A stretch of DNA of 64,000 nt from Adineta vaga (GCA_021613535.1 CP075497.1:1798001-1862000), one strand, 5' to 3'. Shown: positions 16,346-40,738, numbered from the stretch's first letter. Numbers and translations: made by a program. The notes: generated by a model not told the origin, from the letters alone.

Positions 16346-17719
16346 CAACGGAGAGAAAGAATATCTTGATGTAAAGCAGCATTTCATTGCTTTGATAGAA
16401 AATATACCCTGGAAAAAAATGTTCAAAGAGTTTTCTTTTTGATTGTTTTTCATAAAAGTTGAATATTGATATTAAATTGGACTTTCGAACGTATATCTTT
16501 CCTGTTTTACATAAGGAACTATAAATATTTGTATATCAGATACAGCTAAATTTCAAGTTCCTTCCTGCTCTGATTTGGAGACCTGATGGTTTTTATCTTT
16601 ATCAATTTGAATGAAGCATTACTGACTATTCAACTAGAGTTAACAATGACAGAGACAGATTTATTCGATTATATAATAGTAATTGAGAAAGATTTTATAA
16701 TGAATGAAGATTTGTCCAAATTTGGATTTCTGCTGAAGTTAATTTTAGTTCTTGTTGACGACGATAACATTCAAATTGAATTGTTGTCTAAAAATCATAT
16801 TTATACCAAAAAAAGATGAAAAATGTATTGGGTACTTCAACAGTTTGATGTGAGTATTCAAGTAATTTGTTTGATAACGTTTCATTGTTAAACTTAAGGC
16901 TTTACATTGATCTTTAACATTATGTAGGTGTTGCTTTTGTCTTTTCATACGATCATGTAAATCGCTAGAAGAAAAAAGATTCAATGCTGATGTAAAAAGA
17001 AAACTTTATTTATTACCTTTAACACCAACAAGTGGTACGACTATAAGTAATTGTCGCTTTATATTTTCTTTCTTCGCTTGTTCTCAAACAAATGCTGTCA
17101 TATACCTGGTAGAGTTTTTTCAAGATCTTGTTTATAGTCTTGATCATTTCGTGTAAAAACTTAAAAATAACAAAAATCTGCTCCTAATCCACATCTTCAC
17201 CATCATGTTCCAAGTTGTTTTTCATTTACAACAACTATAATATCTCAATTTAAGATTCGAAAAAAAAACGAAGGCTTAGGAGGACAGCATGATTTACTTG
17301 AATACGATCATCAGCTAATGGTGAGATTTCCCTTTTTTTTCAATGAAAAATTCTTTTATTCTAAAAATATTCGAAAAAAATAATATCTGGAAGGTAATAC
17401 AATAATAGAAATATATTTTTCTCGGCACGATTTACGAATACGAACAGTAAAAAGAACAGTTCTATTTTTTTCTCATTCCTCTTGTCCTGTTTCTACTATT
17501 CTAGTTGGTCTCGCCATCTTGCTTTTCTTCTATTCATTTTGATTTGCCTCTACCATTCATAATTATCAAAATGAAAATAAAAAATATTTTCGAGAATTTA
17601 TTGTTTTTTTCTAGTAAATAAAATTCATTTTTTATTAAATATGACAACAAAACTATTCATATTTTGACAAACTCAGCTGTTTTGTATTTGATACATACGT
17701 CGAGAGAAACGCTTATTCA

Positions 17720-19782: not shown

Positions 19783-20777
19783 ATTAAATACTCATTCATC
19801 CTCATACCTTTGTGCTTTCATTTATTTAAAATAAAATTGTTATATTCGATCATTAAGACAGATGTCACTCGATTCTTGTCAATGAACATCAAGAAGTCAT
19901 TTTGTTGGTATTTTGCGATTCAATCAAATATATATTTGAAATGGAAAATGAATTCAAATTCTTTAGTCCTTGTCTTTGGGGAGCAGAACTATTCAATGAA
20001 CGTTTAGTGAGGGTAGTTTTGCTAACACACCAAATTATTTTATCGCATTGATATTTTCCAAAATATTCTGTGCAATTTTTGGCTAGTCTCTCTTACGTAC
20101 AGAGAGACTTTTAATAATTTATGATTTGCAAAGTTATTCATAGACAAAAGGTATCGCGAGATGAAAAAATATTGAACAGAACTTTGATCTGATTAGAGAA
20201 GAAATAATTCACAGTATGTCATTGTTTATTCCACGAACTTTCTCCTTTTATATGATCAAATTCTATCACTTTTATTGTATATTGAAGACTATGCTAATTT
20301 TCTCATCTTGTGAAGTTGAGTGTAAGTTTTAAGTCGAGAAATTTGGCCCGCCCCTCTCCATTGCAGACACAACCCTATTCTAGGCAAAAGTTCATTCATA
20401 GGAATAACTTGGTTTCAAGCAAAACCTTATTAAGTACAGGATATTATCGCAAATAGAGTATGTGCATGTCACATTTTAGCGCTAAAGGGGCAGTACTGTA
20501 AAGCTTTTCTTATTTAATTCGATCATGCTGAAGTTCTGATTAGTAAGAAATTGCTACATAGCTTTTTTTTAATGTTTTAGTTTTATGGAATGATCTCTTT
20601 GTTGTTTCACAAACAATTTTTATTTTTATATTACAGTTTCTATTAATAAGCATTAATTATCATAAAACAATGTGATGGAAATCAATGTACAGGTGAACAT
20701 TATCCAAAATTTCGATATATTTTATAACGAAAAAAAGAAGATTTTTTCTTTTATTTGAAAGACCAAATATTATGATT

Positions 20778-21437: not shown

Positions 21438-22316
21438 TTATTTTTGATAAACTCGTACCCAATCGACAATCATTTGTTGAGGCCAAACTGTTTGATTATT
21501 TGGCGATCCAGGCCATGGACCTCCAATAGCAATATTAAGAATCATATAATAGGGCCATTTTCCTTTAAAAGCATCAACTGGATTGATTGAGTTTGTAATA
21601 TTTGTTGTATTTAGTTGAAAATATGTTATTTCATTAATTCCAATACTAATCTGTGTTGAAGTCCATTCCGTCCAATAAACTAAACTATGATTATGTAACA
21701 GAGAACCATCTGGTGTCTTCCATTGTGTTCCATATGAAGCATGATACAATGGTGACATTGTATTTGATGCATTATTCCAATGGACTGTTCCATGTGCAAT
21801 TTGATCATTTGGAGTTCCCCATTGACGTCCACCGATCATTTCTAAAATATCAATTTCACCAACTGTTGGCCAATAGAATTTATATTTATTCCAAGCATTT
21901 CCAACTAACCACCATGCTGGCCATATACCTTGACTATACGGCAAACGAATTTTAGCTGCAAATTTACCAAATGTAAATTCTCGTAGACCAACACTTGAAA
22001 GCATTCCTGATGTATATCCTTCTTTAAACGCAACAATAGTTAATTGATCATTTTGAATATAGGCATTTGAAATAGAATTTGTATAATTTTGTAAACCACC
22101 ATTGATATTACCAGTTTTTAAAGCCCAATTTGAAGGATTTGGTGCATAGGCAGGTGCACCATTGATTGTTCCTTTTACTGAACCAACATTTTCAAATTCA
22201 TCTTGCCAAACAAGATTATAACCTACGCCTGGATCATAAGTAAAATTAGATGGATTCCAACCAAGAATATTTTTACACAGAAGAATCAGAAGGATACAAT
22301 CGAATAAATGTAACAT
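21438..22316 (-). CDS. Secreted GH16 beta-1,3-glucanase (laminarinase-like), intronless
   Basis: Signal peptide, LVWQDEF, GIWPAWW, WPTVGEIDILE (ExDxxE catalytic motif), ILNIAIGGPWPG, MIVDWVRVYQ. Confidence 0.93.
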   Translation of the reverse strand: MLHLFDCILLILLCKNILGWNPSNFTYDPGVGYNLVWQDEFENVGSVKGTINGAPAYAPNPSNWALKTGNINGGLQNYTNSISNAYIQNDQLTIVAFKEGYTSGMLSSVGLREFTFGKFAAKIRLPYSQGIWPAWWLVGNAWNKYKFYWPTVGEIDILEMIGGRQWGTPNDQIAHGTVHWNNASNTMSPLYHASYGTQWKTPDGSLLHNHSLVYWTEWTSTQISIGINEITYFQLNTTNITNSINPVDAFKGKWPYYMILNIAIGGPWPGSPNNQTVWPQQMIVDWVRVYQK

Positions 22317-22953
22317 AATGTTTTGATATACTAGCTGATGTTGAATACCTTGTATTTATACTTTCTCAGTAGGTAAACAAGAAGCTCTAGTAGAGAGCAT
22401 CGGAAGATTTTTTAATCTAAAAAGAATTGTATTTATTTCGATTTGTTAAAGTTCATTTATAAATAGACGTTTCGTACTGAAATGAGTACATAAATATATA
22501 AAAGTACATACAACGAAGTGCGTAGAAGTGCTGAGTCGTATTAAAGAAAACGTGAAAAGACTTGATTTTAATCGGTTTTTAATGATGAAAAAGTGACTAA
22601 AATCTTGCCGATTTTAGGTTTTCACATATAAATCGCAATACTTTTTCCTACTGAATAATCTTTCGATTGAATAAGGACAAAATTATGGAAGTGTAACATT
22701 ACCAACATTCTCGGTACATATGTTTTCTACACACTACTTCATCATTGCTCCAGTTTTGTACATGATACATCCACAGAAACTTATATAGACAAAAAACAAA
22801 TATACGAGGTTAAATCAAAGATATGCCAACGTTTCCGATGACAGCAGATCAATAATACACATGTAAATTTTTCTACTATAATCTGGATTATGCATTTAAA
22901 CTTAAGCTTTATTTTTAAAATAAAATCGAATATCTCAAACAATTCGATATAGT

Positions 22954-24226
22954 CTATTTGATTTTTCCTTTTTTCGCCATTAATTGTTCTTCAGCCATTC
23001 TTGTTCCTTCTAATCTTGCTCGTATTTTTTCAAATGCAATTTCTCTTGATATTGATTGAGCATCATCAAATGGTGAAAATCCACAATCATCTGTTGTTCC
23101 TAATTGTTCAATAGGAATATATTTCGCTGCTTGTAAAACTTGTTCACAAACTTCTTCACGTGTTTCAATTCGTGGATCAATTGGATTAATAACTCCAATG
23201 AAAATCCGATGCCAAGGTTGCATATACTTTCGAATACATGCTAAAACTCGTTCTCGCTCAGGTTCACTTGCTAACTGAAGATAAAAATGACCCACATGAA
23301 GTTCAAATAATTTCGGAAGAACTTGTAAATATTCAGTTTCAAATGTATGAGAACAATCTTGAGCACCACCTTGAAATAAAAGAAAAAGAATTTATGAAAA
23401 GATCGAACATGTAAACAAACCTGCACAAACATGAACACCAAGACGATGTTGTTCACTAAAGGCAAATCGTTCCAATACTCGATTGTTTAAACAAACAAAA
23501 TCTTTTAATAATTGTCCAGTTGGATCAATTTTCAATGAAAAACGTGCTTCAGTAAAATCAAGCTGAATACAATGCGCACCTTTTTCCAAACATAAACGAA
23601 TATCTTTTTCTGATTCATTGATTAAATCAGTTAGAAATTGTTCATGTGAATAACCTTTAATCGTTGCTGTTGGATAAACCATTGATAAAGCTGATGGACT
23701 TATCACTGCTTGTCTAAGAAAACACCACAAATCTCAAAAAAAGAAGAAAATAAATATCGATTTACTTGATTGGTAAATGAGTAAACTTTTTTGCCATATC
23801 GAGATATGTATAAGCATAAGTTGCATATCGAAATGGAGCTTTGATTAAACGTGGAAGAATACGTTGTTGACCATCGGCATATTTTAAAGAAAAACAATCG
23901 AATGAAAATGTATAATATTCATTAATAAGTTGTTTGATTGGATAAATTAAAAATGATGGTTTCATTTGTTCACCATCGGTTACAACTTTTGATCCAATGG
24001 TTTCTAATTCACTTATCGTTGTTTCTATTGCTCGATTATAATAATCATCTAAACGTTTAGTTGTCATTCTTCCTTGATGATGATTACGAATTGCAGAGAG
24101 TAAATCATCAGGTCGAGGTAATGAACCAATTGGTTCACTTGGTATGATAATCTATTAGACAAAAAACAAGTTATTTAAATAAAAACAATAAAAAACGAAT
24201 ATAGTTACTCTCTCAATTTTGCTCAT
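22954..24226 (-). CDS. Cobalamin-independent methionine synthase II-like (single-barrel MetE family), 4 exons
   Basis: IPSEPIGSLPRP, VVTDGEQ, KQAVISPS, IQLDFTEAR, GVHVC (HxC zinc ligands), GVINPI, TTDDCGF. Confidence 0.88.
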
Positions 24227-25157
24227 GATTATGAGAATACAAAAAGAAATGCTTTTGTTTATATGGAGAAGAAGTATGTTTTTTTTAATTAAAATAAAGG
24301 GATTTGATCGGAAAACAAGACAGGAAAGATGAGAGAGTGAATTATCATTATTGATTTGGAAAATTATTCATATAGATCAAAGAATTGCCAACTGGTTAGG
24401 ATCAAATCAAGGAAAAGAAAAACTATCTTGACATAAAACAGCATTTCATATTGCTTTTTTTAGAGAAAATGGAGCCTGGAAAAATGAGTAAATCATAATA
24501 TCGAGAATATAAGTTGACTTTGGTGTTTTACATGTGAAATAGAAATATTTGTATATCAGAGACATCTGCTTTTCAAATTCTTTCCGATTCTGATTCGGAG
24601 ACACGACGGAATGTTCCATTTCTATTAAACATAAAATCATTCTTCATCAGATTTGAAAGAAATAGTAGATTCTTCTTCGACAGATTAAATAAATAAAAAA
24701 AAAGGAAATGATACACTTCCTTTCCTATCTATTGTATTTATCAATCATCGACAGAAATCTTTGTTTAATTATTCTCTATTGAACGTACATCTTTCATTTG
24801 ATTGGTAAAGTCCTTATTACGATGTTAGAAACTCTCAATGACTCATATGATATTTTTAGACAGGAAGAAAATCATATCTTAGATAGATTTTCATAACAAA
24901 ATTTTATATCGATGAATCATTTCAAGAAAGACATACATTCATTTTGTACACAGACGAAAATAGTTATTTGATAGCCCTAGACGTTTCGTTCTTTCCTTCT
25001 TTCTTCTATGTACATATATATATAGTGAGTGTTTTTACATAACGCGATCACACTCGTGATGAAAGACGTGCATACATTTATTTATTTATTTATTTTCTAT
25101 TCGTCTGATTTTAACTGTTTTTAGATATAATAAGATTAAATTCGGTGTGTGTGTATT

Positions 25158-27632
25158 ATGTCAGCAACGGATTCTGATTATCTCATTCGAGATGGTTCAG
25201 CAGAAACAACATCAAAACCCAAATTAAAAAAGGTATTTTGTTTTCTTTTGATTTTCTTTCTTTGATTCATTTTCTTGATTTAGTTTCTTATTTTATCAAG
25301 CATATTTTTATTGGGTATTGCAATTGGAAGTATTCCTTCATTTATCTATTATTTTCGTCAATCAAAACCAAATCCGAATCCACCAACACCTTCTGTATGG
25401 AATTCAAGTGATTATCAATCAAATAGTGATTTTTATAATCAATTAGTAACGATTGAGAGTTTTAATCAAACTCATAATCTTCGTTTGGATCGTCTTTCGT
25501 CTCCATGTTTTCATCCGAAGACTGGCGAAAGTGTGATCTATCTTCGAAAACAATATCATATGCCTGATTTAAATGGATCAACAACAACATTACATTGGAA
25601 AAATTTACAAACAAATCAAACAATTCAATTAACTAAACCTATTTGGAATATTCATGATCAACAAGTTTGTCTATCAACTTTTTTCTTTATACTTATATTT
25701 CTTATCGATAATTTCTATAGTTTTATTGGATTGATGAAAAAACCATTATTTTCCTTTCAAATCGAGCATCATCTGGACTTGTACAAATATTTCAATTGAA
25801 TTTACCTGAGAATTTGATCAATCTTCGAGATTATCTTGAACCAATTCAAATAACTGATTATCCATTGGATATTAACAATTTACTTGTTAATCGACAAGGA
25901 ACACGTTTAGCATTTAGTTGTCAAGTTTATTCCAATCTTTCAATTGAAGAAACAAATATTCGAATGAAAACTGAAGCCAAAACTGGTGAAAATGTTTACA
26001 AATTCGATAAATTATTTATTCGTCATTGGGATGAATTTATGCTTGGTCGTCGCCATCATCCATTTCTTGTTTCACTTCAACGAAATGCCAGAAATGTCTT
26101 CGAATTCTCATCGAAACCCCAGGATGTTCTTTTTGGTATTGATAGTGATTCACCAACACGACCATTCGGTGATGGAAAAACACAATGGTCATTTAGTGCT
26201 AGTGGCAATTCGTTTGCTTTTACAAGACAACATGATGAAACAAGTGCAGTGGCATGGTCAACGAATTTAGATATTTATACAGTTGATTTGACAGCAATGA
26301 ATTTCGTTAGTATTTGTGTAACGTGTGATAATTTCGCTGCTGATACTGATCCAAGTTATTCACCGGTTGATGAACATGTCTTAGTTTATCGATCACAATC
26401 AGTTCCTGGTTATGAATCGGATCAATTTAAAATCAAATTGATTAATGGTGATTGTTTTATTTAGTTTTTTGTTGTTGAATTTTTGTTTATTTCACTTTTT
26501 TGTAGGTTCAAATCCTCGAATGACTTTAATGAATAATTGGGATCGTAGTATTCAAGGAATGACATGGTCAAATGATGGTCAAACACTTTTTCTTGAAATA
26601 GGTGAAGAAGGTGAAAATGTTATTTATAAATTCACAAATTTAACTTCATCATTATCAATTCCTCTTCGTCTTATCAATGATGGTACATCAAAAGATCTCA
26701 ATATTCATCCATTAAATTCCAATATGTTTGTTTATACTCATGATAGTATAACTCAACCTTTGAATATTTATCTTTTCACTTCACCAATTTCAATTCAAGC
26801 ATTAACAAATCATAATGATAACTTCTTATCCAAAGTTCGAATGAGTAAATTTGCTGAAAAATTCTCATTTCTCGGTGCCAAAAATGAAACTGTTTGGGGT
26901 TGGCATATTCCTCCTTTGAATGGTACAAATCAAAAAGCTCCATTAGCATTTCTTATCCATGGTGGTCCACAAAGTAGTTGGTATAATGCTTGGAGTTACC
27001 GATGGAATTATCAATCATTTTCATCACAAGGTTACGCTATCATTGCCATAAATTTTCATGGTTCGGATTCTTATGGACAAAACTTTACAGATAGCATCAT
27101 CGGTGAATATGGAACATTACCATTCGATGATTTAAAAATGGGTTTAACAGCTGCCTTGAAACAATTCAATTATATTGATGGTAATCGATCGATTGCATTA
27201 GGTGCAAGTTATGGTGGTTATATGATCAATTGGATTGCTGGTCATCCAGAATTGAGTCAACGTTTTCGTGCACTTGTTAATCATGATGGATTATTTGATT
27301 TGAGAGCAATGGCTTATTCTACTGAAGAATTATGGTTTGCTGAACATGATGTCGGTAATTTCACACAATATGATAATCCAAAAGCATATGAAAAATATAA
27401 TCCTGTTAATTATGTTGCTAATTGGACTCAACCAATGTTAGTTATTCATGGTGGTCATGATTATCGTGTACCAGATACTCAAGGTATTAGTACATTTACT
27501 GCATTACAACGACGTGGAATTCCAAGTCGATTATTATATTTACCGAATGAAAATCATTGGACAATGAATCCATTCAATTCACTTCTTTGGTATCGTGAAG
27601 TTCTCAATTGGATGAATCAATGGACAAGTTAA
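25158..27632 (+). CDS. S9 family serine peptidase (dipeptidyl-peptidase V-like) with N-terminal TM anchor, 4 exons
   Basis: LFIRHWD, IHGGPQ, GASYGG nucleophile, HGGHDYRVP, PNENHW catalytic His. Hydrophobic N-terminal segment. Confidence 0.92.
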
Positions 27633-27789
27633 AAGAGACACAATTCTAGTTTTTTTCTTTCCGTATTTTAGATTAAAAAAACTCAATGAGAGAGAGAAAG
27701 AGAACTTTCAATTTTATTCAATAAAATTCATTTAAAATGATCATTTCTTTCACTTAAAAAAAAATCATCAGATTTTTTTGTTCATTCAA

Positions 27790-28006
27790 AATTCTTCTTC
27801 ATCTTCACATACCGATATTTAGTGCTGATCTTCGATCTTTAATTGTAAGTATAGTAATAACTAGTAATGTTCCAGATTTTGGTATTGTTGATATTCGATT
27901 GCTGTTATTCGTATTCTTCGATATGTTTGTACACAAAATCGATAAAGTTTAAAGACAGAATTTTTAGCAGTTAAACCAGTGTAAAATCTACTCCATTTTT
28001 TACGTC
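27790..28006 (-). pseudogene. Highly degraded third ADP-ribosyltransferase remnant
   Basis: The minus strand reads KKWSRFYTGLTAKNSVFKLYRFCVQTYRRIRIT...ILTIKDRRSALNIG*, collinear with the 28575-29645 ART C-terminus but with deletions and a stop. Confidence 0.7.
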
Positions 28007-28339
28007 ATTTTTTTATGTATTCGTCGGTTACTTACTGAGGGAGAAGAGAAAAGGCGAATAAAGTCATATTGAAGTGTCGAACGTTAAAACAATAGGTTTT
28101 CATTTATTAGAATAGGCATTGTACATTGTTTTGATTGTTGAACATTAGCATAAGTAATTGGATTCAGGCGGTAATGTGGTAAGACGAGTAACATCATTAT
28201 CACACTTTGCTATGAATATTTTCGTTTTCATAAACAATGAAAATTTTCTACAGTGAAAATAACTTTGCATAGAAAATTAAGGTCAGACAGTTTTATTGAG
28301 TTAGTAATGGAAGAAAATTATACCAGTAGTTCCACACAT

Positions 28340-28410
28340 CGCGCAGAACATACTGCGTCTCCTATGAGAGATGAAGGTGCATCCCTGATCTGAGGGATAT
28401 CTGACATCAC
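28340..28410. repeat. Degenerate fragment of the 35485-35656 MITE family
   Basis: GAGAGATGAAGGTGCATCCCTGATCTGAGGGATATCTGACATCACTC resembles the right half of the 35.5-kb element. Confidence 0.6.
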
Positions 28411-28574
28411 TCATAAATCAATGGACAAGTTAAAATAGACACTCGATATTTTAGTTTTACAGGAAAAAAACAAGATGTTCTGATTTTATTCTCGTAATTT
28501 CGTTCTAAAATGTATAAATATATACTTAGTATTAAATTACAATGACATGAGAATTATTTTTATTTTATTCGTTT

Positions 28575-29645
28575 TTAAAATTCATCGTTCCATTTAAGTT
28601 GTCTTAAATGAATTTCGTAGGGTTGATTTGTTTCATCCATCTCTGTAACAATGAACAAACTTCCAGGAACAATTAAAACTTCTTCTTCATATTGATATTC
28701 AGATATTTTATCAATATCAAGTGCGGATTTTTTATCGAGTATTGTAAATATGATAACAACAGATAATCTTTCTGGTCTTGGTACTGATGGACAAGCGAAA
28801 CCTTTTGCAATTTTCCATGATTTTGATGTTGATTGAAATGATTTATTTGATAAAGCAATACCAATATGATATTGTTTGTAATCAGTTGGTGTAATTTCCA
28901 TTCCACGATATGTTTGTCCACAGAATCGATAAGGTTCAAAGGCAGAATTCATTGCAATTAAACCCGTATAATATCCAGTCCATTTTTTACATAATTTTTC
29001 ATAAACTTCTCGACGAGTTCCACTGGCCATTTCTGCATTTAAAAGTGAATAAAATTGACTTTGAGCTGTATAAGCTCGAAGTAAATAAATTGGATCATTT
29101 GTTTCTGAAGCTTGTTGAAAAAGATCTTTAACCAGTGCAGTTGATTTTTCTCGATCGTCGAGTAAAGCAAGAGCTTTATCAAGTTTTTTTATTGTTTTTT
29201 TAATTCCACGATCTTTCAAACAACCCCAATGTGTAGCACGAGAATAATATTCAGCTGAATTATCTTCAAAATTCCATTCAGGTTGTTCAACTGGATTATT
29301 ACTAAAACGTTGTTTTGTTGCTTCAGCTGATCGTGGAAAAAGTTGGGCAATTTCTTTAGTCTTTGCTTCATCCAACGGTGTACAACCATATCGATTGATT
29401 ATTCGTCGACATGCACCATATTCTAATAGCATTCGAACAATATCTGTATGTCCATTATACGAAGCTACATGAAGACATGTACTTCCATTAGGTTCTAAAC
29501 GATTGAGAAGTCTTAAAGGAGTTTGTGGTAATAAACGTTCGACTGTTGCTTTATCGCCATCTCGACAAGCAAAATATAAATCACTAACAATCATTACTGC
29601 CATTCTGCTCTTACGATTTGTACTCCTATGTGATTTTATATACAT
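28575..29645 (-). CDS. Ankyrin-repeat + R-S-E mono-ADP-ribosyltransferase (exoenzyme/ARTC-like), intronless
   Basis: Ankyrin repeats (LYFACRDG, GSTCLHVAS, GCTPLDEA), then LRAYT, TYRGM (R), SFQSTS (STS) and YEEEVL (ExE). The true start may be the downstream MAVM. Confidence 0.9.
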   Translation of the reverse strand: MYIKSHRSTNRKSRMAVMIVSDLYFACRDGDKATVERLLPQTPLRLLNRLEPNGSTCLHVASYNGHTDIVRMLLEYGACRRIINRYGCTPLDEAKTKEIAQLFPRSAEATKQRFSNNPVEQPEWNFEDNSAEYYSRATHWGCLKDRGIKKTIKKLDKALALLDDREKSTALVKDLFQQASETNDPIYLLRAYTAQSQFYSLLNAEMASGTRREVYEKLCKKWTGYYTGLIAMNSAFEPYRFCGQTYRGMEITPTDYKQYHIGIALSNKSFQSTSKSWKIAKGFACPSVPRPERLSVVIIFTILDKKSALDIDKISEYQYEEEVLIVPGSLFIVTEMDETNQPYEIHLRQLKWNDEF

Positions 29646-29973
29646 ATTTTTTTCTCTGTTGACATTAAGTATAGACGATTCTTTTTCTTTTATAAATCTT
29701 TCTATTCATGATTTTCGAAAATAGTCAAGATTCTAGCTCTTTTACCATTATAATTCTGTGCTATTAACATTACTTATACACACCAGGTGAGAAGATTTCA
29801 CTTCGTTATGTCTGAGTCTTTGATAGATGTCGTAGTTATATTGTATGTATCAATAGTGGTTTATTTATTCGTACATACAGATTGAGAGATGACTCATGTG
29901 TCATCATTCATAGATATATATATATATACATTCACTATGTAATAGCTTACTTAAGTTCTTTTTTCCAGAAAGA

Positions 29974-30690
29974 ATGGCTACTGTAAATAATGGTCGTTTA
30001 TCGTCGGAAATCTTTGTTTTTCTTCATGGATTTACTCAAGATAGTAATGTAGGTGGTGGTGGTCAAATAGCAAAATATATTGCATCATTATTTGAAGTTT
30101 CAGTTGAACAACCAAATCTAAATCAACCATCATTCAATGAATTCTCTGTTTCAAATGCAATCGATGTAATCAATCGACTATACGATGAAAAACAGAACAA
30201 ACAAATGAATCTTATCGGTGCTAGTATGGGTAAGTTTTATTCTTTTCAAACTGCAAATTTGTCGAAGAGAATCTCATACTTAGGTGGTTATATTGCTGCA
30301 TGTTATGCAGAACGTTATCCTGATCGTGTCAAGAAATTATTCCTTCTTTGTCCAGCATTTGGTTTAGTTGCTCGATGGCGTGAATTTTTAACCGACGATG
30401 ATTTAGAAAAATGGAAATCATCCGGATCATATTCATACGATGGTCGACAATTACATTATTCATTCTTTAATGATATTAAAGAAAAACATTCACCTTATCC
30501 TCAAGTATCTTGTCCAACATCCATCGTACATGGAAAATCCGATCAAATCATACCAATTGAAGCGAGTCGAAAATTTATTCAAGAACAAAAAACCAAAGGA
30601 TTGATTAATCTTGTTGAAGTTGATGATGATCATTATCTAACAAAAAGTTTATCACAAATTATTCAGAGTGTTTCACAGTTTTTACTTTAA
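29974..30690 (+). CDS. YqiA/YcfP-like alpha/beta hydrolase (esterase), copy 1, one in-frame 54-bp intron
   Basis: FLHGF, GASM|GG after removing the intron at ~30230-30283, LLCPAF, VHGKSDQIIP, DDDHYL. Confidence 0.88.
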   Translation: MATVNNGRLSSEIFVFLHGFTQDSNVGGGGQIAKYIASLFEVSVEQPNLNQPSFNEFSVSNAIDVINRLYDEKQNKQMNLIGASMGKFYSFQTANLSKRISYLGGYIAACYAERYPDRVKKLFLLCPAFGLVARWREFLTDDDLEKWKSSGSYSYDGRQLHYSFFNDIKEKHSPYPQVSCPTSIVHGKSDQIIPIEASRKFIQEQKTKGLINLVEVDDDHYLTKSLSQIIQSVSQFLL

Positions 30691-30736
30691 ATTAAATTTT
30701 TTTATTAAATAAACCTGCAATGTATTTTTGTTTTAG

Positions 30737-31468
30737 ATGAATAAAACTCTTTTAGAAACATATCGAGATTGCCCATTATGTTTAAAACTACTCTATGAAC
30801 CAGTTTCAACTTTATGTGGTCACACATTTTGTTTATTATGTCTTGAACGTTTTATAATTGCATCTGATTCGATATTAAAATGTCCTATATGTCGTGTTGA
30901 TTTAACTTATCTTCGTTCATGTTCAAATCAATTGAAAACAAATACAATTCTTCATAATCTTTTTCGTGAAATCTATGGAAATGAATATGAACTTCGACGA
31001 AATGAATTTGAAAATGAAAGAAAAAATATTATAAAGAAACGTTTAATTATTGGTAATACACATCAGTTATTACCATGTGATTATCATCATAAACAACATG
31101 AATGGAGTTTATTTATTAAATTTGAAAATGATGAAGAAAATCCTGATGAAATTAGTGAATATATTAAACAAATTCAAATTCATTTACATCCAACTTTTTC
31201 TCCATCACAAATTATTTTGGATAAACCACCATTTCGACTAACAAGAATTGGATGGTAGAAATAAAATGTTTTCTTGAAAGAGAAATTAGTTGTGAAGTTT
31301 TTGTTTAGGGGAGTTTTTACTGTTCAAATTTCAATTGAATTTCAAGGCAAATGGAATAAATCAGATTTAATAACAAATTGGTTTTTATCATTTACAAATA
31401 TGGGGAATCAAAAATCAATAGAAATTGGCTTTCAAAAATCTTCAAATAATTTATTCGATGAATCGTAA
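30737..31468 (+). CDS. RING-HC + YEATS domain protein, copy 1, 2 exons
   Basis: C3HC4 RING (CPLC..CGHTFC..C..CPIC). YEATS motifs IIGN, HEWSLFI, LHPTF, KPPF and GW|GVF across the intron at 31255-31308. Confidence 0.88.
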
Positions 31469-34147
31469 TATTAGTTTTGTATATAAAATATATCTTTATT
31501 TTTCTTTGGTTGTTGTTGTTGTTGTTTAACAATGAAGATTTATTATAAATAAATTGAATTCAAATTTCATTTCGACGATATTTTTTGGTTTATTCAATAG
31601 AAATCAATGATGTATAAAAGATCAAATTATAGATTTTACCAAAATGAAACCCGTTTATCTTTATAAAACTTCATATAAATCATAAAGAATACAAATTTTA
31701 TCAGTGAGCGCGACATAATGACTGAAAGCTTATTTTATGCAAAGATATAGTTACAATAAATGTTTATATCCTTGAAATAGAACACATCGACTAGATTTGA
31801 GTACATATGAATGTATGAAAAGCTAGTAAAATAATACATATATTTGCTTTGACGGTGTGCAGTTGTGATTGTAGGTCTCAGTATCTTGCTTGAGCTTGTC
31901 GAATAGCTTCTTGATCACTGTTATGATATATTTTGAGTTTATCATTTAAGGCTTCAGCTTCTAATTCATATTTATTTTTCATTTTCTTGAATTTGTTGTT
32001 ATAAAATTTTTCGTTCTTTCTTAAAATCACCTTGTTGAGCCCTGGCATTCTTGTTCAACTTTTTCTACTCTTTAAGTGTAAATTCCACGATGACCTGGGA
32101 TTGACAATAAGAACTATCATTAGTACAGTTTTCTTTTAGTTATTGTTTTTTATTATCAGAATCTGTTTTGATGGCATCTAAAAAGCATATATCAATACTG
32201 TTAACATTCGTGTTGACCAGGAGGTTATGAAGAAGAAGAACATTCAAGTTTGATGGAGTACATTGAAAGTTATGGTATCTTCTTCTCGAATACTTTCATT
32301 TTGATGGCCAAGTATGAACTTCATATTTGATTAAGAGTCTACATAGTTCAGTTCAAGTTCACAATCACTCACTTTCTAACAGTTGTTGAATTAAATGGTG
32401 GTATAGCTGATGATGATTCAATTAATTCAATGAACTGTTCAAAGTAATCCAAATCCCATTTATTGTCAGCAATTAATTGTCAATAATCCATTTGATCGAA
32501 AAACACGACCATTTCGCATAATCTTCAAAATTCAGATCTTTCATTTTCAGTAGAACATGCTTCAGAACTAAATAAATCTGATGTACATATGTTTGGATTA
32601 TGGTAATCTAAAGAAAATATTAAACTGAAATTAAATATATTTATTTCACAACTTTTCTGCATTGTTCATCAAACAATTACAATAAAATGTTAAGATTTCC
32701 AATCACCTGTAAGAAAAATTTTGGTTCACATGAAAAAATTCAAACTACACAATAATGTTTGAAATCTAGAACAATTATTTTCACCAGGTAAATTATAATC
32801 AACAATATTTCTTATTATACGTATTCGTAAATTATCTTATAAAGAAAAAGTACTTGTATCGATTCAATATCATGAAAATCGACATCATTTCTACCCTATA
32901 ATAGTTAAAGATAATTACTTTTCGCTATTTCATAGGAAAAAACGATTATCTGAGCTATCTTTTGGAGATTTGAAACTAGTGAAGTAGGGAAAATCATAAA
33001 ATAATCGTCTGAAAATCTTTTAAACATTGATAAAGAGTATTTTCTAAAAGTCAATGTATTTTGTCTTTCATATTGAAAGTGATTTTTAAAAGTTCTTTTA
33101 GTTATCTTGCTCTTTTCTCTTAATTTTCGGACCATAAGGTACATTGATCTTCTTCAAATAGATATGGATCTTGTATTTATTAGAATTTCCTTTGATATGC
33201 TAATTAACTTGAACATTTCTCCAAAATTTCAAATGAAAAGAAAAACAATGAAGTTAAATCTTAATTTATTTCTAATACTTTTTCATACGATATATGGAAA
33301 TGTAAGATTTGAAGCTTTCACTTGAATTGAGACAAGTTTAACGGATAAGGATATTATCTTATTTTAAAATATTTCATTTGTCTATACTAATTAACTCAAG
33401 AAAAGCAATTAGCACAATCTCTTGAGGGTCAAATGTGAAATCTGATCGAGTTACTTGTTTCGTAAGTGAGAAAATTTGCTGAAGTATGAGAAAAGAGAGA
33501 GGGATATGTCCAGATTTCTAACTCTATGGTACAACATTCCTTTCGGATACTGTCTTACAAAAGTAAGTCTCAGATGATATTGAAAAGATTTATTTCTACT
33601 ATTTCTCAAACAAATTTTAGCACACTTCAGTATTTTTCTACAAAGATGATCAAACTCTATCTTTGACATTACTTTAGATGGGTACGGGAGTAAGTCGACA
33701 AACTGATGAAGAAGTAAATCTTTATAATATCATTCCAGATCCTTGTTGATTCGTTTTCTACATATATTAAAATATCAAGTGAGACAAATGTATCGAAGAA
33801 AAGATTTTTTATTATTTTTAATAAAATAGTTTAATTTTTTTTTAAGATATCTTCATCAATGAATGAATTATTTTTGAAAAAGCAGGAAAATTAGAGTCAC
33901 ATGTTCAATCGAACGCTTACTATGGACGTGATTCAAAAGCTATTCTTGGTTTAATATATCATCGTTCATACTTGAGCAGATTTTCAAATCAGAAAAATTT
34001 TGATCGTGAAAAATCAAAAACTAAAGAATGGTGAGAAGCTGCAACAACAACTCAATTTTGAAGAATAAATAGACTTTTTAATAAAATGTAACAAAAGAAG
34101 ATATAATAAATTTAAAAAAATTAACGGAGAACAATAAAAACAATGGA

Positions 34148-36583
34148 TTAATTGGATAAAGCACCGGTTGGAATCGATGATGCAGGTCTAGGATTTGTTA
34201 AAAATATAAGACACTGCTGTTTGACCTTTTCTTGGATAGAAGGTGATAACACAATCTTGAGTAAGATAATTATACCAATACAAAAATAAACACTAGGTTG
34301 TAGAACACCTTTTTCTTGTATAAATATAGCCGATGCAATAACTCCAGCAAATATATTTAATAAGAATTCCAATGTTTGTCCTATATTAGAAAATGTTTAA
34401 AAAAGTCTCTATTATAATATCTGCCGCTAAATTAAGTAAAAAACAAAGGAAAACATAGACTATCGCTACTTTATATTAACTACATGTGGCACTAGAAACA
34501 TAGACCTATGCATCTTGATTAGTTCTAATGATTCATACATAGCATCACTATATTTGAAGTTCATACTTAGGGATAGATTGATGAAATGCACGGGAAAGCT
34601 TTTGCGTTTTTCTCAAAACCTGAATCTCGGCGCAAATTTTTTCATCATAGTTTATTCTAAAGAATTGCTGTTCTTCATTGATTAGTTAATTAGGACAAAA
34701 CCAAGGACGGTTAATAAATGTTGCTACACATACTAACTGTTTGTTTTGCATGCGAATTCTTTACAACGAACAGAGAATCTATCTTAATGCAATTAAGATG
34801 AATGTTTATTTGTACATATATGAACAAATATCTTCAAAAAATAGTATAAATGTCCAATATTAACATTACTAATTGAAAATAGTAAGTAACAATGATCTTC
34901 ATCTAACAACTAGGAACACGGAGAAAAAATGCATACAACATGCAAAGCGAAGAGGAAAACGACAAAAAGACACAAATAAGTAGGCACAAGTATATATAGA
35001 TGATTTTAGTGACCACAAAATAAGAAAGTAATTTTAAACGCTATGTTAATGTTATCGTGTTGATATAAAGCATCATAGGGTACCATTTAAAAATGTAATT
35101 TACCAGCTAATTACTTTTTTTTTGATTGTCAAGATTTTTTGTCACTAGAATAGAATGAAAAAGATTTGAAATAATTACAAATATCTCTAATTAAAAATTT
35201 ATTGCAGAATTGTCTTGTCGTAAGTAGAACAATACGATCATTTCCATTAACGACCTTCGCTTTGAAGAACGTATATTCTACTCAATTTGACTAGACCAAT
35301 GACGTAGTGTAAAATTCAACGGAAACGTATGCTCTTTACTCGTATTCTTAACTATAATTTACCTGAAACGTTAGACGTATCATGATAAAAAGTTTAAATC
35401 AATGTGAGAAAGAAAATAAAGAGATATTCTCTAATATTTTTCAACAGTAATGCTGCTGGATATATCAGAGTTAGGACTCCAGCAGTGTCACATATCCCGC
35501 ATTTTGTGCGTGATATGTGCATAATGAAGAGTGAGGGTGCGTATCCTGATGGAGATAACTGCATATCCCGCACAAAATGCTGCATCTCCCGCTAGAGACC
35601 AGCTCGTCTACTGAGGGAGATGAGGATGCATCCCCGATCTGCGGGATATGTGACACCACTCGCTGACGAGCGACATAATGTATCCAATCTGTAATATTTC
35701 TGTGCTTAAATATTTCTGAATTAAGTACTTACTGAGAAAATTAAAAAAGTAATTGTTGAGAAACTTTTTGCACCAACCACCTATGTCGATATTGTTGTCA
35801 TCTACAAAAAAGACATAGACTTAGTTTATGTTTCATTTATGGAGTTCTTGACAGTATTTATAATGTACAATGTACTTATTTTTATTTTTCATTACTTTTT
35901 AATATTTTATTCTGGTACTATTAAAAGTATAGAAGACTCCTTGCGAAAGCTTAGAAAATGTTCATTTTTTTATACTTTAGTCACAAAAATCGTTTGATAG
36001 AAAGTCATTGTTTGAAATTCATATTAATCTCCATAGATTTCGTCAGAATTATATGCCTAAATTTAAGTTCCGATATATCGAAAAATCCTGCTTCTACTTT
36101 TAATCTATAGATATTCATGGAAAAGAAGTCAGATAAATCACATCAAAGTCGTTTTTTTTTGTATTAAGACAAAATATCTAATTTTTCTGTTGTATAGACA
36201 GATTTTATTTGATTTCTATCGATCAAAATTCTAGAATTTCAACAGATTTTTACTTAACCAAGAATCGACAAAAATCAGATCTTTCCTTACATAAAGTATC
36301 AAGTACTATTAAATAAAAAACATTCTTTATATTTACCAGATTCATTAATATGATAGACTGGAATATCTCTTTGTTGAATATCCCATAATTGTGATGTCAT
36401 AATAGGTACTATGAAACTGTTTGTATCTGGATTAAATAATATGATATTTGTTTCGTTTGATATTGTATACATTGCTTTAACATTATCGATAAATTTTTCA
36501 AAAGGAACGGATGGATCAATAGTTAATAATTTTTCAATACCACGAGATTTAATATTTATTGATTTTAATCCACCCATGTGCAT
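34148..36583 (-). CDS. Putative 159-aa protein: ubiquitin/PB1-like N-terminal region + two hydrophobic helices, 2 exons
   Basis: Exon 36583-36337 (ends G|GTAAAT) splices in frame to exon 34380-34148 (preceded by TAG), giving ...YHINESGQTLEFLLNIFAGVIASAIF... The fold assignment is a guess. Confidence 0.5.
35485..35656. mobile_element. MITE-like element with perfect 17-bp terminal inverted repeats
   Basis: GTGTCACATATCCCGCA (35485-35501) / TGCGGGATATGTGACAC (35640-35656), GC-rich, with an additional internal inverted repeat. Confidence 0.75.
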
Positions 36584-37150
36584 TTTTCATCTACATAAAG
36601 AAAAAAAGAAAAAACGATATTAAAACAATAGCTAAATCTTGATGAATAAAATCGAGGAACGTATACTAAAAGATACAAAAAATATATATATATATAATGC
36701 TGCTGTCAAAAAAAAGGTATACAATTTGCATGAAAAATTGGCAAATGATAATAAACTGTATAAAGATGTCGCCATAAAACTAATTATAACAAGTCTCTCT
36801 CCTTAAACATGTGCGATATACACGCTTGTTTTTATAATAGAAATCTTCTGATTTTTATCTTTTTGAAAAATGAACTATTTTTCAATAGCGTGTCGCGGCA
36901 GCCGCAGACAGACTCTTAGCCACGACGGACATCTCCGTCACTTACTTTACCTTGTTTATCTTCATTAGCATTGTCGCACCTAAGAGGAGAATTGAGGGAA
37001 GAGTCGATCACTCCCTAAAATAGTACAGAGACTGCCAACTGAGTAAAATAGTAAGTAATTTGACGCTTTCTTTATTTAAAAGTATAAAGTATTTTTCAAA
37101 AGTACAAATCACTCTACTTGTAACTTATACTAATTATAAAAATCGTTTTT

Positions 37151-38110
37151 TTAAAATTCGTCATCCCATTTTAGTTGTTCTAAATTAATTTCATATGGAT
37201 GAGTTGTTTTATTAATATTCGTAACAATGAATAGAGTTCCGAGTAGAATTAAAACTTCTTCTTCATGTTGGTATTCAGATATTTGATCAATATTAAGTGC
37301 GGATTTTTTATCGATTATTGTAAATATGATAACAACAGATAATTTTCCTGGTCTTGGTACCGATAGACAACCAAAACCTTTTGCAATTTTCCATGATTTT
37401 CATGTTGATTGAAACGATTTATTTGATAAAGCAATACCAATTTGATATTGTTCATAATCAGTTGATGTAATTTGCATTCCTCGATATGTTAATCGATCAG
37501 GTTCAAATGCTGAATTCATTGAAATTAAACCTGTATAAGCACGAAGTAAATAAATTGGATCATTTGTTTCTAAAGCTTGTTGAAAAAGATCTTTAACCAG
37601 TGCAGTTGATTTTTCTCGATCGTCGAGTAAAGCAAGAGCTTTATCAAGTTTTTTTATTGTTTTTTTAATTCCACGATCTTTCAAACAACCCCAATGTGTA
37701 GCACGAGAATAATATTCAGCTGAATTATCTTCAAAATTCCATTCAGGTTGTTCAACTGGATTATTACTAAAACGTTGTTTTGTTGCTTCAGCTGATCGTG
37801 GAAAAAGTTGGGCAATTTCTTTAGTCTTTGCTTCATCCAACGGTGTACAACCATATCGATTGATTATTCGTCGACATGCACCATATTCTAATAGCATTCG
37901 AACAATATCTGTATGTCCATTATACGAAGCTACATGAAGACATGTACTTCCATTAGGTTCTAAACGATTGAGAAGTCTTAAAGGAGTTTGTGGTAATAAA
38001 CGTTCGACTGTTGCTTTATCGCCATCTCGACAAGCAAAATATAAATCACTAACAATCATTACTGCCATTCTGCTCTTACGATTTGTACTCCTATGCGATT
38101 TTATATACAT
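37151..38110 (-). pseudogene. Ankyrin-ART copy 2, catalytic domain disrupted
   Basis: Ankyrin half is near-identical to copy 1. There is a 34-codon in-frame deletion after LRAYT and a TCA>TGA stop in the STS motif (37400-37402). The frame continues to EYQHEEEVL...KWDDEF*. Confidence 0.88.
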
Positions 38111-38433
38111 ATTTTTTTTCTCTGTTGACATTAAGTATAGACGATTCTTTTTCTTTTATAAATCTTTCTATTCATGATTTTCGAAAATAGTCAAGATTCT
38201 AGCTCTTTTACCATTATAATTCTGTGCTATTAACATTACTTGTACACACCAGGTGAGAAGATTTCACTTCGTTATGTCTGAGTCTTTGATAGATGTCGTA
38301 GTTATATTGAATGTATCAATAGTGGTTTATTTATTCGTACATACAGATTGAGAGATGACTCATATGTCATCATTCATAGATATATATATATTCACTATGT
38401 AATAGCTTACTTAAGTTCTTTTTTCCAGAAAGA

Positions 38434-39150
38434 ATGGCTACTGTAAATAATGGTCGTTTATCGTCGGAAATCTTTGTTTTTCTTCATGGATTTACTCAAG
38501 ATAGTAATGTAGGTGGTGGTGGTCAAATAGCAAAATATATTGCATCATTATTTGAAGTTTCAGTTGAACAACCAAATCTAAATCAACCATCATTCAATGA
38601 ATTCTCTGTTTCAAATGCAATCGATGTAATCAATCGACTATACGATGAAAAACAGAACAAACAAATGAATCTTATCGGTGCTAGTATGGGTAAGTTTTAT
38701 TCTTTTCAAACTGCAAATTTGTCGAAGAGAATCTCATACTTAGGTGGTTATATTGCTGCATGTTATGCAGAACGTTATCCTGATCGTGTCAAGAAATTAT
38801 TTCTTCTTTGTCCAGCATTTGGTTTAGTTGCTCGATGGCGTGAATTTTTAACCGATGATGATTTAGAAAAATGGAAATCATCCGGATCATATTCATACGA
38901 TGGTCGACAATTACATTATTCATTCTTTAATGATATTAAAGAAAAACATTCACCTTATCCTCAAGTATCTTGTCCAACATCCATCGTACATGGAAAATCC
39001 GATCAAATCATACCAATTGAAGCGAGTCGAAAGTTTATTGAAGAACAAAAAACCAAAGGATTGATTAATCTTGTTGAAGTTGATGATGATCATTATTTAA
39101 CTAAAAGTTTATCACAGATTATTGAGATTGTTTCACAATTTTTACTTTAA
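38434..39150 (+). CDS. YqiA/YcfP-like alpha/beta hydrolase, copy 2
   Basis: Near-identical to 29974-30690. Confidence 0.88.
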   Translation: MATVNNGRLSSEIFVFLHGFTQDSNVGGGGQIAKYIASLFEVSVEQPNLNQPSFNEFSVSNAIDVINRLYDEKQNKQMNLIGASMGKFYSFQTANLSKRISYLGGYIAACYAERYPDRVKKLFLLCPAFGLVARWREFLTDDDLEKWKSSGSYSYDGRQLHYSFFNDIKEKHSPYPQVSCPTSIVHGKSDQIIPIEASRKFIEEQKTKGLINLVEVDDDHYLTKSLSQIIEIVSQFLL

Positions 39151-39233
39151 ATTAAATATTTTTATATTAAATAAACCTGCAATGTATTTTTGTTTCAGAT
39201 TAAAATCTTCTCTAAGAAAAGATTATATTTTAG

Positions 39234-39962
39234 ATGAATAAAACTCTTTTAGAAACATATCGAGATTGTCCATTATGTTTAAAACTTCTCTATGAACCAG
39301 TTTCCACATTATGTGGTCATACATTTTGTTTATTATGTCTTGAACGTTTTCTAATTGCATCTGATTCGATATTAAAATGTCCTATATGTCGTGTTGATTT
39401 AACTTATCTTCGTTCATGTTCAAATCAATTGAAAACAAATACAATTCTTCATAATCTTTTTCGTGAAATCTATGGAAATGAATATGAACTTCGACGAAAT
39501 GAATTTGAAAATGAAAGAAAAAATATTATAAAGAAACGTTTAATTATTGGTAATACACATCAGTTATTACCATGTGATTATCATCATAAACAACATGAAT
39601 GGAGTTTATTTATTAAATTTGAAAATGATGAAGAAAATCCTGATGAAATTAGTGAATATATTAAACAAATTCAAATTCATTTACATCCAACTTTTTCTCC
39701 ATCACAAATTATTTTGGATAAACCACCATTTCGACTAACAAGAATTGGATGGTAGAAATAAAATGTTTTCTTGAAAGAGAAATTAGTTGTGAAGTTTTTG
39801 TTTAGGGGAGTTTTTACTGTTCAAATTTCAATTGAATTTCAAGGCAAATGGAATAAATCAGATTTAATAACAAATTGGTTTTTATCATTTACAAATATGG
39901 GGAATCAAAAATCAATAGAAATTGGCTTTCAAAAATCATCTGATCAAATCAGTATCAATTAA
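39234..39962 (+). CDS. RING-HC + YEATS domain protein, copy 2
   Basis: Near-identical to 30737-31468 with a different C-terminal tail. Confidence 0.88.
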
Positions 39963-40401: not shown

Positions 40402-40738
40402 TTAGAAGAAAGATCCGCCACCCATTCCCCCATTATAACCATATGAAGATCCATAATTTCCAAAACCTCCTGGTCCGCCAAAACCTCCCATTCCACCAAA
40501 GCCTCCTGGCCCACCAAAACCTCCCATTCCACCACCAAAACCTCCTGGTCCACCGAAACCTCCCATTCCACCGCCATGACCTCCCATTCCACCAAAGCCT
40601 CCTGGCCCACCAAAACCTCCCATTCCGCCACCAAAACCTCCCATTCCACCTCCATGTCCTAATTTTATATATCAGAATTAATCAAAAAGGAATAAATATT
40701 TATTTACCATGATGGTGATGATGATGACCGCCAAACAT
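40402..40738 (-). CDS. 95-aa His6-leader, glycine-rich low-complexity protein, 2 exons
   Basis: Exon 40738-40708 (MFGGHHHHHH-G) splices in frame to exon 40658-40402 (GHGGGMGGFGG[PM]GG repeats ... GGSFF*). Confidence 0.75.

What the first reader, a model, noticed from the sequence alone, without database searches (positions are those of the whole stretch)
28575..39962. Tandemly duplicated ankyrin-ART / esterase / RING-YEATS cassette: candidate post-translational-modification or defence module
Seen: the same three genes occur twice, ~8.5 kb apart. An intronless ankyrin + toxin-type ADP-ribosyltransferase is divergently transcribed from a ~330-bp shared spacer with a YqiA-like esterase, which is followed 46-83 bp later by a RING-YEATS gene. 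The promoter and both + strand genes are nearly identical between copies, but only the ART of copy 2 is inactivated. A third ART relic lies at 27.8-28.0 kb. Established: R-STS-ExE ARTs modify proteins, RING-HC domains are E3 ligases, and YEATS domains read acyl-lysine. Inference: a co-regulated writer/eraser/degrader or toxin-antidote-like unit, in which the ART undergoes birth and death while its partners are retained.
Basis: partly seen in the sequence, partly recalled or inferred. Interest (0 to 1): 0.8.

Follow-up and report, generated by a model that had tools for sequence, protein, structure and literature searches.

The report
Candidate rotifer operon beside duplicated ADP-ribosyltransferase
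In a bdelloid rotifer, an esterase gene and a RING-YEATS gene lie only 46-83 bases apart next to an ADP-ribosyltransferase gene, and are likely made as one transcript that leader splicing cuts apart (an operon, as in nematodes and sea squirts); the tandem duplication is real and likely sits on one chromosome copy only, and nothing tested points to a toxin-antidote unit.

Summary
The genes and the duplication are real; the locus matches Adineta vaga I4U23_027804-027809. The near-identical tract is only 29066-31440 / 37531-39937. The 3' third of ART copy 2 is much older (87.6%, dS 0.27), so this is an old tandem duplicate homogenised later. Contig depths fit a one-homolog duplication.

The trio is not a fixed module. 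In relatives the esterase sits inside intron 1 of an SVIP gene, ART loci without it exist, and the peptidase, glycine-rich and plexin neighbours are syntenic too.

More striking: the RING-YEATS ATG directly follows a splice acceptor in 9 of 9 intact lineages, only 16-83 nt after the esterase stop where the two genes adjoin. The acceptor is lost only where RING-YEATS is a pseudogene. RNA contigs show separate messages, one 5' end starting at the acceptor, and a weak read-through. Best reading: an operon resolved by spliced-leader trans-splicing, said in 2021 to be unreported in rotifers. No leader sequence was seen directly. The scan noted a similar candidate in A. steineri (e1-2593265).

The parts
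25284..27632 (+). S9 (prolyl-oligopeptidase family) peptidase; flanking gene, same position in L008/L009
27784..28012 (-). 3' ART relic (66-78% to ART1), part of a small local duplication that also copied the S9 3' end (27612-27653 ~ 28413-28458)
28356..28412 (.). end fragment of the MITE-like repeat found whole at 35485-35656
28575..29603 (-). ART1: intact, intronless ankyrin + helical + R-STS-ExE ADP-ribosyltransferase, 342 aa; covered by RNA-type contigs
29604..29973 (.). divergent spacer, 370 nt; a GATGA(C/T)TCAT motif shared with L001, L002, L004 lies ~85 nt before the esterase ATG
29974..30690 (+). esterase copy 1 (220 aa, intron 30230-30283); in relatives nested in intron 1 of SVIP
30691..30736 (+). 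46-nt gap: AATAAA at 30708-30713 and a splice acceptor ending at 30736, directly before the ATG; inferred poly(A) site and trans-splice site
30737..31468 (+). RING-YEATS copy 1 (225 aa, intron 31255-31308)
29066..31440 (.). homogenised core, copy 1 (98-100% to 37531-39937)
31441..37530 (.). filler between the cores, at about one-copy contig depth; holds a spliced minus-strand gene (34852-36592) and a MITE-like element (35485-35656, 17-bp inverted ends)
37151..38068 (-). ART2, broken: old divergent 3' third (37151-37530), in-frame gaps of 102 and 9 bp, premature stop at 37400-37402
38434..39150 (+). esterase copy 2 (intron 38690-38743)
39151..39233 (+). 83-nt gap: AATAAA at 39170-39175; esterase RNA contigs end at 39183-39194; acceptor directly before the ATG, where one RNA contig begins after 4 unlaid letters
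39234..39962 (+). RING-YEATS copy 2 (224 aa, intron 39752-39805); its tail resembles the A. steineri orthologue
40402..40644 (-). Gly-rich gene; a similar gene follows RING-YEATS in L008
42359..48598 (-). plexin-like gene; same position in L004, L005, L006 and L008

Best explanation
The esterase and RING-YEATS genes are likely the remnant of a bdelloid operon: one precursor RNA, probably ended at the esterase poly(A) signal and re-capped by spliced-leader trans-splicing at the acceptor directly before the RING-YEATS start codon. Shown: the gaps, the AATAAA and acceptor, their conservation, the introns, and the gene order in relatives (SVIP with the esterase inside its first intron, a small gene X, then RING-YEATS). 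Inferred: co-transcription and leader addition; loss of SVIP and X in this lineage. The ART is a separate, divergently transcribed member of a large rotifer ART family, linked as part of a wider conserved block. Its predicted activity is arginine-type mono-ADP-ribosylation; it is untested. The cassette was tandemly duplicated long ago, and the ART copy later died. A 2.4-kb core was then homogenised, probably by gene conversion, and the other homolog probably carries one copy.
For: Acceptor: positions -6 T, -5 T, -2 A and -1 G are each 9 of 9 in independent intact lineages; positions -40 to -20 reach 3-6 of 9. Background: TYYAG precedes 21 of 2,834 ATG triplets in the window. Controls: 0 of 7 ART starts and 0 of 6 SVIP starts have YAG directly before ATG. 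The acceptor is lost only in L017/L074, where RING-YEATS has a stop at codon 24 and breaks off after codon 35. Gap from esterase stop to ATG: 16 nt in L004/5/6/11 (stop, 4 nt, AATAAA, TTTCAG, ATG), 46 and 83 nt here. The A. vaga median intergenic distance is 0.8 kb and median intron 58 bp (PMC5916493). RNA: the esterase contigs end 8-19 nt after AATAAA in X11 and X17 (weak hint). One X11 contig starts at the AG of the acceptor after 4 unlaid letters, which fits the rotifer leader ending CAAGAG (PMC3795323). One X13 contig at depth 5.2, against about 55 beside it, bridges the copy-1-type gap. RING-YEATS is a stand-alone 200-250 aa family elsewhere. Duplication: dS 0.27 and dN/dS 0.39 in the ART 3' block, against dS 0-0.09 in the core. 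Depth ratios are flank/filler 1.6-1.76 and core/filler 2.1-3.6; 1.59 is expected for a collapsed heterozygous flank at 1.7% heterozygosity.
Against: No leader sequence was read: the 4 letters are not shown, and they come from 1 contig of 1 of the 4 runs. About 60% of A. ricciae mRNAs are reported as trans-spliced (review PMC4824033), so an acceptor alone does not prove an operon. The X17 esterase contig starts on genomic acceptor letters, so there is no sign of a leader on the first gene. The read-through contig is one contig with 28 letters on its short side. The runs are assembled contigs whose RNA nature the tool only guesses, and its depth figures are stated not to be copy numbers. The SVIP, X and RING-YEATS junctions all appear to be in phase 0, and public gene models fuse them. 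AATAAA is absent from 5 of 7 of the SVIP/X-to-RING-YEATS gaps examined.
Confidence: 0.57

Rival explanations
1. RING-YEATS is monocistronic: it has its own promoter inside the esterase gene, and its 5' outron is replaced by the spliced leader. The result is a tight cluster but no operon.
For: It explains the conserved acceptor and the low-depth bridging contig equally well. Trans-splicing of ordinary genes is common in Adineta.
Against: The upstream neighbour differs between lineages (esterase, SVIP, or X) while the gap stays 16-173 nt, so the promoter would have to re-arise inside different coding sequences. The shared promoter-like motif lies before the first + strand gene.
Confidence: 0.2
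2. The cluster is one alternatively cis-spliced gene: the acceptor joins RING-YEATS to an SVIP/X exon (a membrane-anchored, p97-binding E3 fusion) or to a non-coding leader exon.
For: Public models fuse SVIP, X and RING-YEATS in frame (P0188, P0189, P0204, P0212). A donor-like site near 38250 would also give an AG before the ATG.
Against: The acceptor is kept in two lineages that lack SVIP and X (window; L004 group). The Met is kept right after it. No joint to any upstream exon appears in 4 of 4 runs. SVIP and X have their own stop-bearing last exons.
Confidence: 0.12
3. One reading: ART, esterase and RING-YEATS form a co-regulated writer/eraser/degrader or toxin-antidote unit.
For: The ART is head-to-head with the cluster in 5 of the 6 metagenome lineages with enough DNA, in both ohnolog clades. 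Accession runs show the same linkage in 6 named species. All catalytic motifs are intact. The ART dies while its partners stay expressed.
Against: The esterase is absent beside the ART in L008/L009 and L074, and appears moved in Rotaria sp. Silwood2. L007 shows no ART near RING-YEATS. Peptidase, Gly-rich and plexin neighbours are syntenic as well. The spacer varies from 316 to 949 nt. An alpha/beta esterase is not a known eraser of arginine ADP-ribose; ADP-ribosylhydrolases are (recalled knowledge).
Confidence: 0.08
4. The duplication is an assembly artefact of two haplotypes placed in tandem.
For: The core differs by only about 1-2%, close to the 1.7% allelic divergence of A. vaga.
Against: In 2 of 2 DNA runs contigs join the filler to both cores. 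The core is at 2.1-3.6 times filler depth. The ART 3' ends differ by 12%. RNA contigs show copy-1, copy-2 and a third RING-YEATS variant.
Confidence: 0.04

Closest known systems
SL-trans-splicing-resolved operons with little or no intercistronic DNA (Ciona intestinalis, Oikopleura dioica; C. elegans about 100 bp), as described in PMC7986045 (passages); chaetognath operons, PMC12460157 (passages)
   Same: Same-strand genes 16-170 nt apart, a poly(A) signal followed by an unpaired acceptor, a phylum with a single known leader, and gene predictors that fuse the genes.
   Different: In a rotifer, where PMC7986045 (2021) says operons had not been reported and PMC2481426 lists them as not determined. 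One member is nested in an intron of another (esterase in SVIP). Leader addition was not shown here.
R-S-E (ARTC/cholera-toxin-like clade) mono-ADP-ribosyltransferases: fold matches XopAI, Vis, the 6dre/6drh toxin, C3 exoenzymes, rat ART2.2
   Same: R233, S258-T-S260 and E306-x-E308 are invariant in 45 of 45 aligned homologues; Pfam ART is above the cut-off.
   Different: Only 12-20% identity. It has an N-terminal ankyrin pair in place of a signal peptide or delivery domain, and belongs to a rotifer-expanded family (atlas clusters mostly Rotifera). Substrate unknown.
RING + YEATS proteins of ciliates and ascomycetes (atlas clusters); YEATS2, GAS41, Yaf9, Taf14
   Same: C3HC4 RING followed by a YEATS domain with HPTF and GWGxF motifs aligned to YEATS2; many full-length relatives of 200-250 aa.
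   Different: The architecture is not bdelloid-specific, and I found no paper on it (one search). E3 activity and acyl-lysine binding are untested.
Allelic recombination, gene conversion and hemizygous structural variants in A. vaga (PMC8494291, passages)
   Same: A patchwork-homogenised repeat and a half-depth segment.
   Different: Here it acts between tandem paralogues over 2.4 kb rather than between homologs over 100 kb or more.

Membership tests
SL-resolved eukaryotic operon | Same-strand genes with very short intercistronic distance | tested here: met
   16, 46 and 83 nt esterase to RING-YEATS; 94-173 nt after SVIP or X
SL-resolved eukaryotic operon | Unpaired splice acceptor at the 5' end of the downstream gene | tested here: met
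   9 of 9 intact lineages. No GT donor far enough upstream within the gap in copy 1 or L004; copy 2 has GT at 50 and 42 nt
SL-resolved eukaryotic operon | Spliced leader on the downstream mRNA | tested here: inconclusive
   One contig begins at the acceptor AG after 4 unlaid letters, which are not shown
SL-resolved eukaryotic operon | Polycistronic precursor from one promoter | tested here: inconclusive
   One low-depth bridging contig in 1 of 4 runs; start sites cannot be seen in contigs
SL-resolved eukaryotic operon | Organism has SL trans-splicing | not tested
   Taken from papers for Adineta ricciae and Philodina; not checked here for A. vaga
R-S-E mono-ADP-ribosyltransferase | R, S-T-S and E-x-E motifs in an ART fold | tested here: met
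   ART1. Not met for ART2 (stop in the S-T-S region; the annotated 285-aa model lacks the motif)
R-S-E mono-ADP-ribosyltransferase | NAD-dependent transfer to arginine | not testable with these tools
   needs an assay
Toxin-antidote element | Antidote always present with the intact toxin | tested here: not met
   For the esterase: absent beside the ART in L008/L009 and L074. For RING-YEATS not excluded: it is broken in L017/L074, but the ART there is cut by the contig end
Toxin-antidote element | Toxicity and rescue | not testable with these tools
   needs expression tests
Toxin-antidote element | Linkage tighter than that of ordinary neighbours | tested here: inconclusive
   ART linked in 5 of 6 lineages; plexin in 2 of 2 lineages with at least 3 kb downstream; S9 peptidase in 1 of 3
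YqiA/UPF0227-like alpha/beta esterase | Profile match and Ser-Asp-His triad | tested here: met
   UPF0227 43.7 bits (cut-off 21), but Abhydrolase_1 and Hydrolase_4 score higher; G-A-S-M-G, D and H motifs are seen in the sequence
RING-HC E3 / YEATS reader | C3HC4 ligands; YEATS H-x-x-F/Y and G-W-G-x-F motifs | tested here: met
   the role of these motifs as the acyl-lysine pocket is recalled knowledge

The most novel reading that the evidence does not exclude
This is a true operon in a rotifer, and a functionally coherent one. Ancestrally one precursor yields a lipid-anchored p97 adaptor (SVIP), a serine hydrolase nested in its intron, a small protein X and a RING-YEATS ligase that would ubiquitinate acyl-lysine-marked chromatin proteins. 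A shared divergent promoter would co-induce an arginine ADP-ribosyltransferase, giving a modify-ubiquitinate-extract module. The operon part alone I put at about 0.57; the functional coupling is the unlikely part.
Probability: 0.1. Interest if true: 0.85.

Novelty: new member of a known kind. Interest (0 to 1): 0.5.

Why it matters
Rotifers trans-splice a leader onto many mRNAs, yet a 2021 survey says operons had not been reported in them, and my searches turned up no paper describing one. This locus gives a concrete test in a lab model with public RNA data. It has gaps down to 16 nt, a conserved acceptor that decays with the gene, and an operon member nested in another gene's intron. If operons are general in bdelloids, many public gene models are wrongly fused, as seen here for SVIP and RING-YEATS. 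It would also offer a route by which acquired genes could be expressed without their own promoter. The duplication itself is an ordinary structural variant.

Tried and rejected
No whole genome was held, so the ohnologous region of this genome and genome-wide gap statistics were not examined. No holder was on record as RNA ('no RNA holder listed'). I used 6 of the 24 listed runs (X3, X4, X11, X13, X16, X17); all are contigs.

Parts without cover are not counted as evidence. These are: no RNA-type contig with the ART2 junction in X13 or X16, no ART contig in X17, and none over the spacer or over 39195-39227.

Expression under stress could not be checked. The supplement of PMC10809525 held only 7,229 characters with no hit. 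The table of PMC12220480 was cut when stored and showed no row for these gene numbers. PMC11258130 does not mention ADP-ribos*, ankyrin, YEATS or esterase in its main text; its supplements were not searched. Unseen supplements may bear on co-expression. The original rotifer trans-splicing paper is not held.

Accession adjacency cannot show that the esterase is absent in R. magnacalcarata or R. socialis, because a gene nested in an SVIP intron may go unannotated; I did not count them as losses. Of the 80 loci, 14 were taken as bdelloid RING-YEATS loci (L001-L012, L017, L074); the other 66 matched only the RING motif and were dropped. Five of the 14 (L003, L010, L011, L012, L017) were too short upstream to test the ART. 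In Didymodactylos the best ART and RING hits are not adjacent to the esterase by accession.

My first gap for L004 (57 nt) used the wrong stop and was corrected to 16 nt. The RING-YEATS translation printed used a wrong exon boundary and was ignored. The PDB sequence search with the ART alignment showed only ankyrin hits among the best 60 of 490. I sent no complex prediction, because I do not claim binding. Sequence look-ups in earlier scan notes found nothing.
Full report
1. What is there. The six ORFs are at the stated places, and Pfam gives ankyrin + ART, an alpha/beta hydrolase and C3HC4 RING + YEATS. Named records identify the locus as Adineta vaga: esterases I4U23_027804 and 027808, RING-YEATS 027805 and 027809, and a 285-aa model 027807 for the second ART. 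Esterase and RING-YEATS each have a 54-nt intron, spliced in the RNA-type runs (2 of 2, 4 of 4) and not in the 2 DNA runs. ART1 is intact. R233, S258-T-S260 and E306-x-E308 are invariant in 45 of 45 aligned homologues. Its model (pLDDT 87.8) matches R-S-E ARTs at 12-20% identity. The ART domain belongs to a rotifer-expanded family.

2. The duplication. The near-identical tract runs from mid-ART to the last codons of RING-YEATS: 29066-31440 against 37531-39937. Within it dS is 0-0.09, in patches. The ART 3' block outside it has dS 0.27 and dN/dS 0.39 over 111 codons, and the RING-YEATS tails differ. So the duplication is old, the second ART was under some constraint before it broke, and the core was homogenised later (inferred: gene conversion or unequal exchange). 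In two DNA runs from different studies, contigs join the filler to both cores. Contig depths are 72 and 29.5 for the left flank, 42-45 and 17 for the filler, and 93-120 and 35-61 for the core. The flank/filler ratio of 1.6-1.76 is what a collapsed heterozygous two-copy contig gives against a one-copy contig at 1.1-1.7% heterozygosity (1.7% from PMC8494291, passages). The 4.1-kb filler contig has no differing letter. I infer one homolog with two cassettes and one with a single cassette; the tool warns that these depths are not copy numbers. RNA contigs carry copy-1, copy-2 and a third RING-YEATS variant. The relic at 27784-28012 is a 3' fragment copied with the end of the peptidase gene.

3. 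Synteny. Accession numbers run ART, esterase in 8 of 8 listed A. steineri records, 6 of 6 R. sordida and 5 of 7 Rotaria sp. Silwood1. They run ART, SVIP, RING-YEATS in 4 of 4 listed R. magnacalcarata records, and ART, RING-YEATS in 6 of 6 Silwood2 records, whose esterases are numbered elsewhere (adjacency is inferred from near-consecutive numbers). DNA from 14 bdelloid metagenome loci (of 80 fetched) shows the fuller layout: ART on the minus strand; then SVIP exon 1; the esterase inside SVIP intron 1 (L001, L002, L012); the remaining SVIP exons; a small gene X; then RING-YEATS. A Didymodactylos model fuses esterase, SVIP and X, so the nesting looks old. The RING-YEATS tree has two clades (100/100), which I read as ohnologs. 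The esterase is present in 5 of 5 clade-A lineages where DNA covers it (window included). It is absent in L007 and L008/9 (clade B) and in L074 (not in the tree; 89% to L007). L008/9 and L074 still have an ART; L007 shows none. The window and the L004 group lack SVIP and X. The S9 peptidase, a Gly-rich gene and the plexin flank the cluster in L008 as in the window, and plexin does so in L004-6. The ART's linkage is therefore real but is part of a larger conserved block.

4. The tight + strand run. The RING-YEATS ATG follows TT.(T/C)AG directly in 9 of 9 independent intact lineages. Only 21 of 2,834 ATG triplets in the window have TYYAG before them, and 0 of 7 ART and 0 of 6 SVIP starts have YAG there. 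The one lineage without the AG (L017/L074) has a RING-YEATS pseudogene. The gap after the esterase stop is 46 and 83 nt here and 16 nt in L004/5/6/11, where it holds only four bases, AATAAA and TTTCAG. The nested esterase and gene X also have acceptor-like sites before their starts (4 of 5 for X). In RNA-type contigs the esterase ends at 39183-39194, just after AATAAA. One X11 contig begins at the acceptor AG after four letters that do not fit the genome. One X13 contig at about a tenth of the local depth bridges the gap. No joint links RING-YEATS to an upstream exon (bin arithmetic). The published rotifer leader ends in CAAGAG (PMC3795323, passages), which would give that four-plus-two pattern, but the letters were not displayed. 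RING-YEATS is a free-standing family elsewhere: clusters in ciliates and ascomycetes, and many hits covering both domains among the best 150. This argues that the ATG is a true start.

5. Mechanism. Shown: layout, conservation, introns, separate RNA contigs. Inferred: a promoter in the spacer makes one precursor; 3' cleavage after the esterase AATAAA and leader addition at the next acceptor release two mRNAs (0.57). The rivals are an internal promoter with an outron (0.2) and cis-splicing to an upstream exon (0.12). An assembly artefact is unlikely (0.04).

6. Against what is known. It works like the leader-resolved operons of tunicates, nematodes and chaetognaths (PMC7986045, passages; PMC12460157, passages). 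Two defining features, a leader on the downstream mRNA and a single precursor, remain inconclusive. PMC7986045 states that operons had not been reported in rotifers; PMC2481426 lists them as not determined (passages); PMC5916493 does not use the word. PMC4824033 gives about 60% trans-splicing in A. ricciae (passages). Searches listed no paper on rotifer operons, and searches 16 and 33 none on bdelloid arginine-type ARTs. These were judged from listings; in PMC10809525 and PMC12220480 I read passages, which mention ADP-ribosylation as a GO term or for PARPs. Most subscription papers are not searchable. I had noted the idea before reading it and did not check it.

7. Verdict. The duplication is an ordinary homogenised, probably hemizygous variant, and the defence-module idea has little support. 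What deserves follow-up is a well-constrained candidate for an operon in a rotifer. Interest 0.5.

Noticed in passing
L001:3280-4655, L002:1250-2590, L012:121-1435: An intron-bearing esterase gene is nested on the same strand inside intron 1 of SVIP, with its own acceptor-like site and AATAAA; the esterase has a weak palmitoyl-thioesterase hit (below cut-off) and SVIP begins MG..CC.
   Followed up: partly
L002, L007, L008, L074, between SVIP and RING-YEATS: A small conserved gene X (about 75 aa, starting MGNT) with no Pfam match in the fused model scanned; decayed in L001, absent in L012. A CCGGT motif lies in 6 of 6 gaps from X to RING-YEATS.
   Followed up: partly
P0172 (Rotaria sp. Silwood2): The esterase model is fused to an ADP-ribosylglycohydrolase, so there it neighbours an ADP-ribose eraser, apparently away from the ART; seen in one record only.
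   Followed up: no
window 34852-36592 (-): A spliced, expressed gene inside the one-copy filler, with a MITE-like element (35485-35656, high depth, many loose ends) in an intron; paralogues elsewhere are suggested by loose ends.
   Followed up: partly
window 31850-33750 (-): Decayed coding-like sequence in the filler, with only short open frames; not identified.
   Followed up: no
window 28818-29225 and 29377-29603: RNA-type contigs of a more distant ART paralogue and of a variant about 96% like ART1, whose contig begins exactly at the ATG.
   Followed up: no
window 14498-16582, 18696-19857, 23295-24602: Other local duplicates at 95-97% identity: a transporter-like gene and a methionine-synthase-like gene (labels from reading the ORFs, not from a scan), plus an inverted older transporter copy at 3750-5446.
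   Followed up: no
window 21438-22355 (-) and 62037-63416 (-): Long uninterrupted frames resembling a GH16 glucanase and an adenylate-forming enzyme (recalled resemblance, not scanned); possible foreign genes.
   Followed up: no
P0138, P0139: The closest non-bdelloid esterase hits (45% identity) include the amoebozoan Planoprotostelium; with RING-YEATS clusters in ciliates and fungi, a non-metazoan origin of these genes is possible but was not tested with a tree.
   Followed up: no
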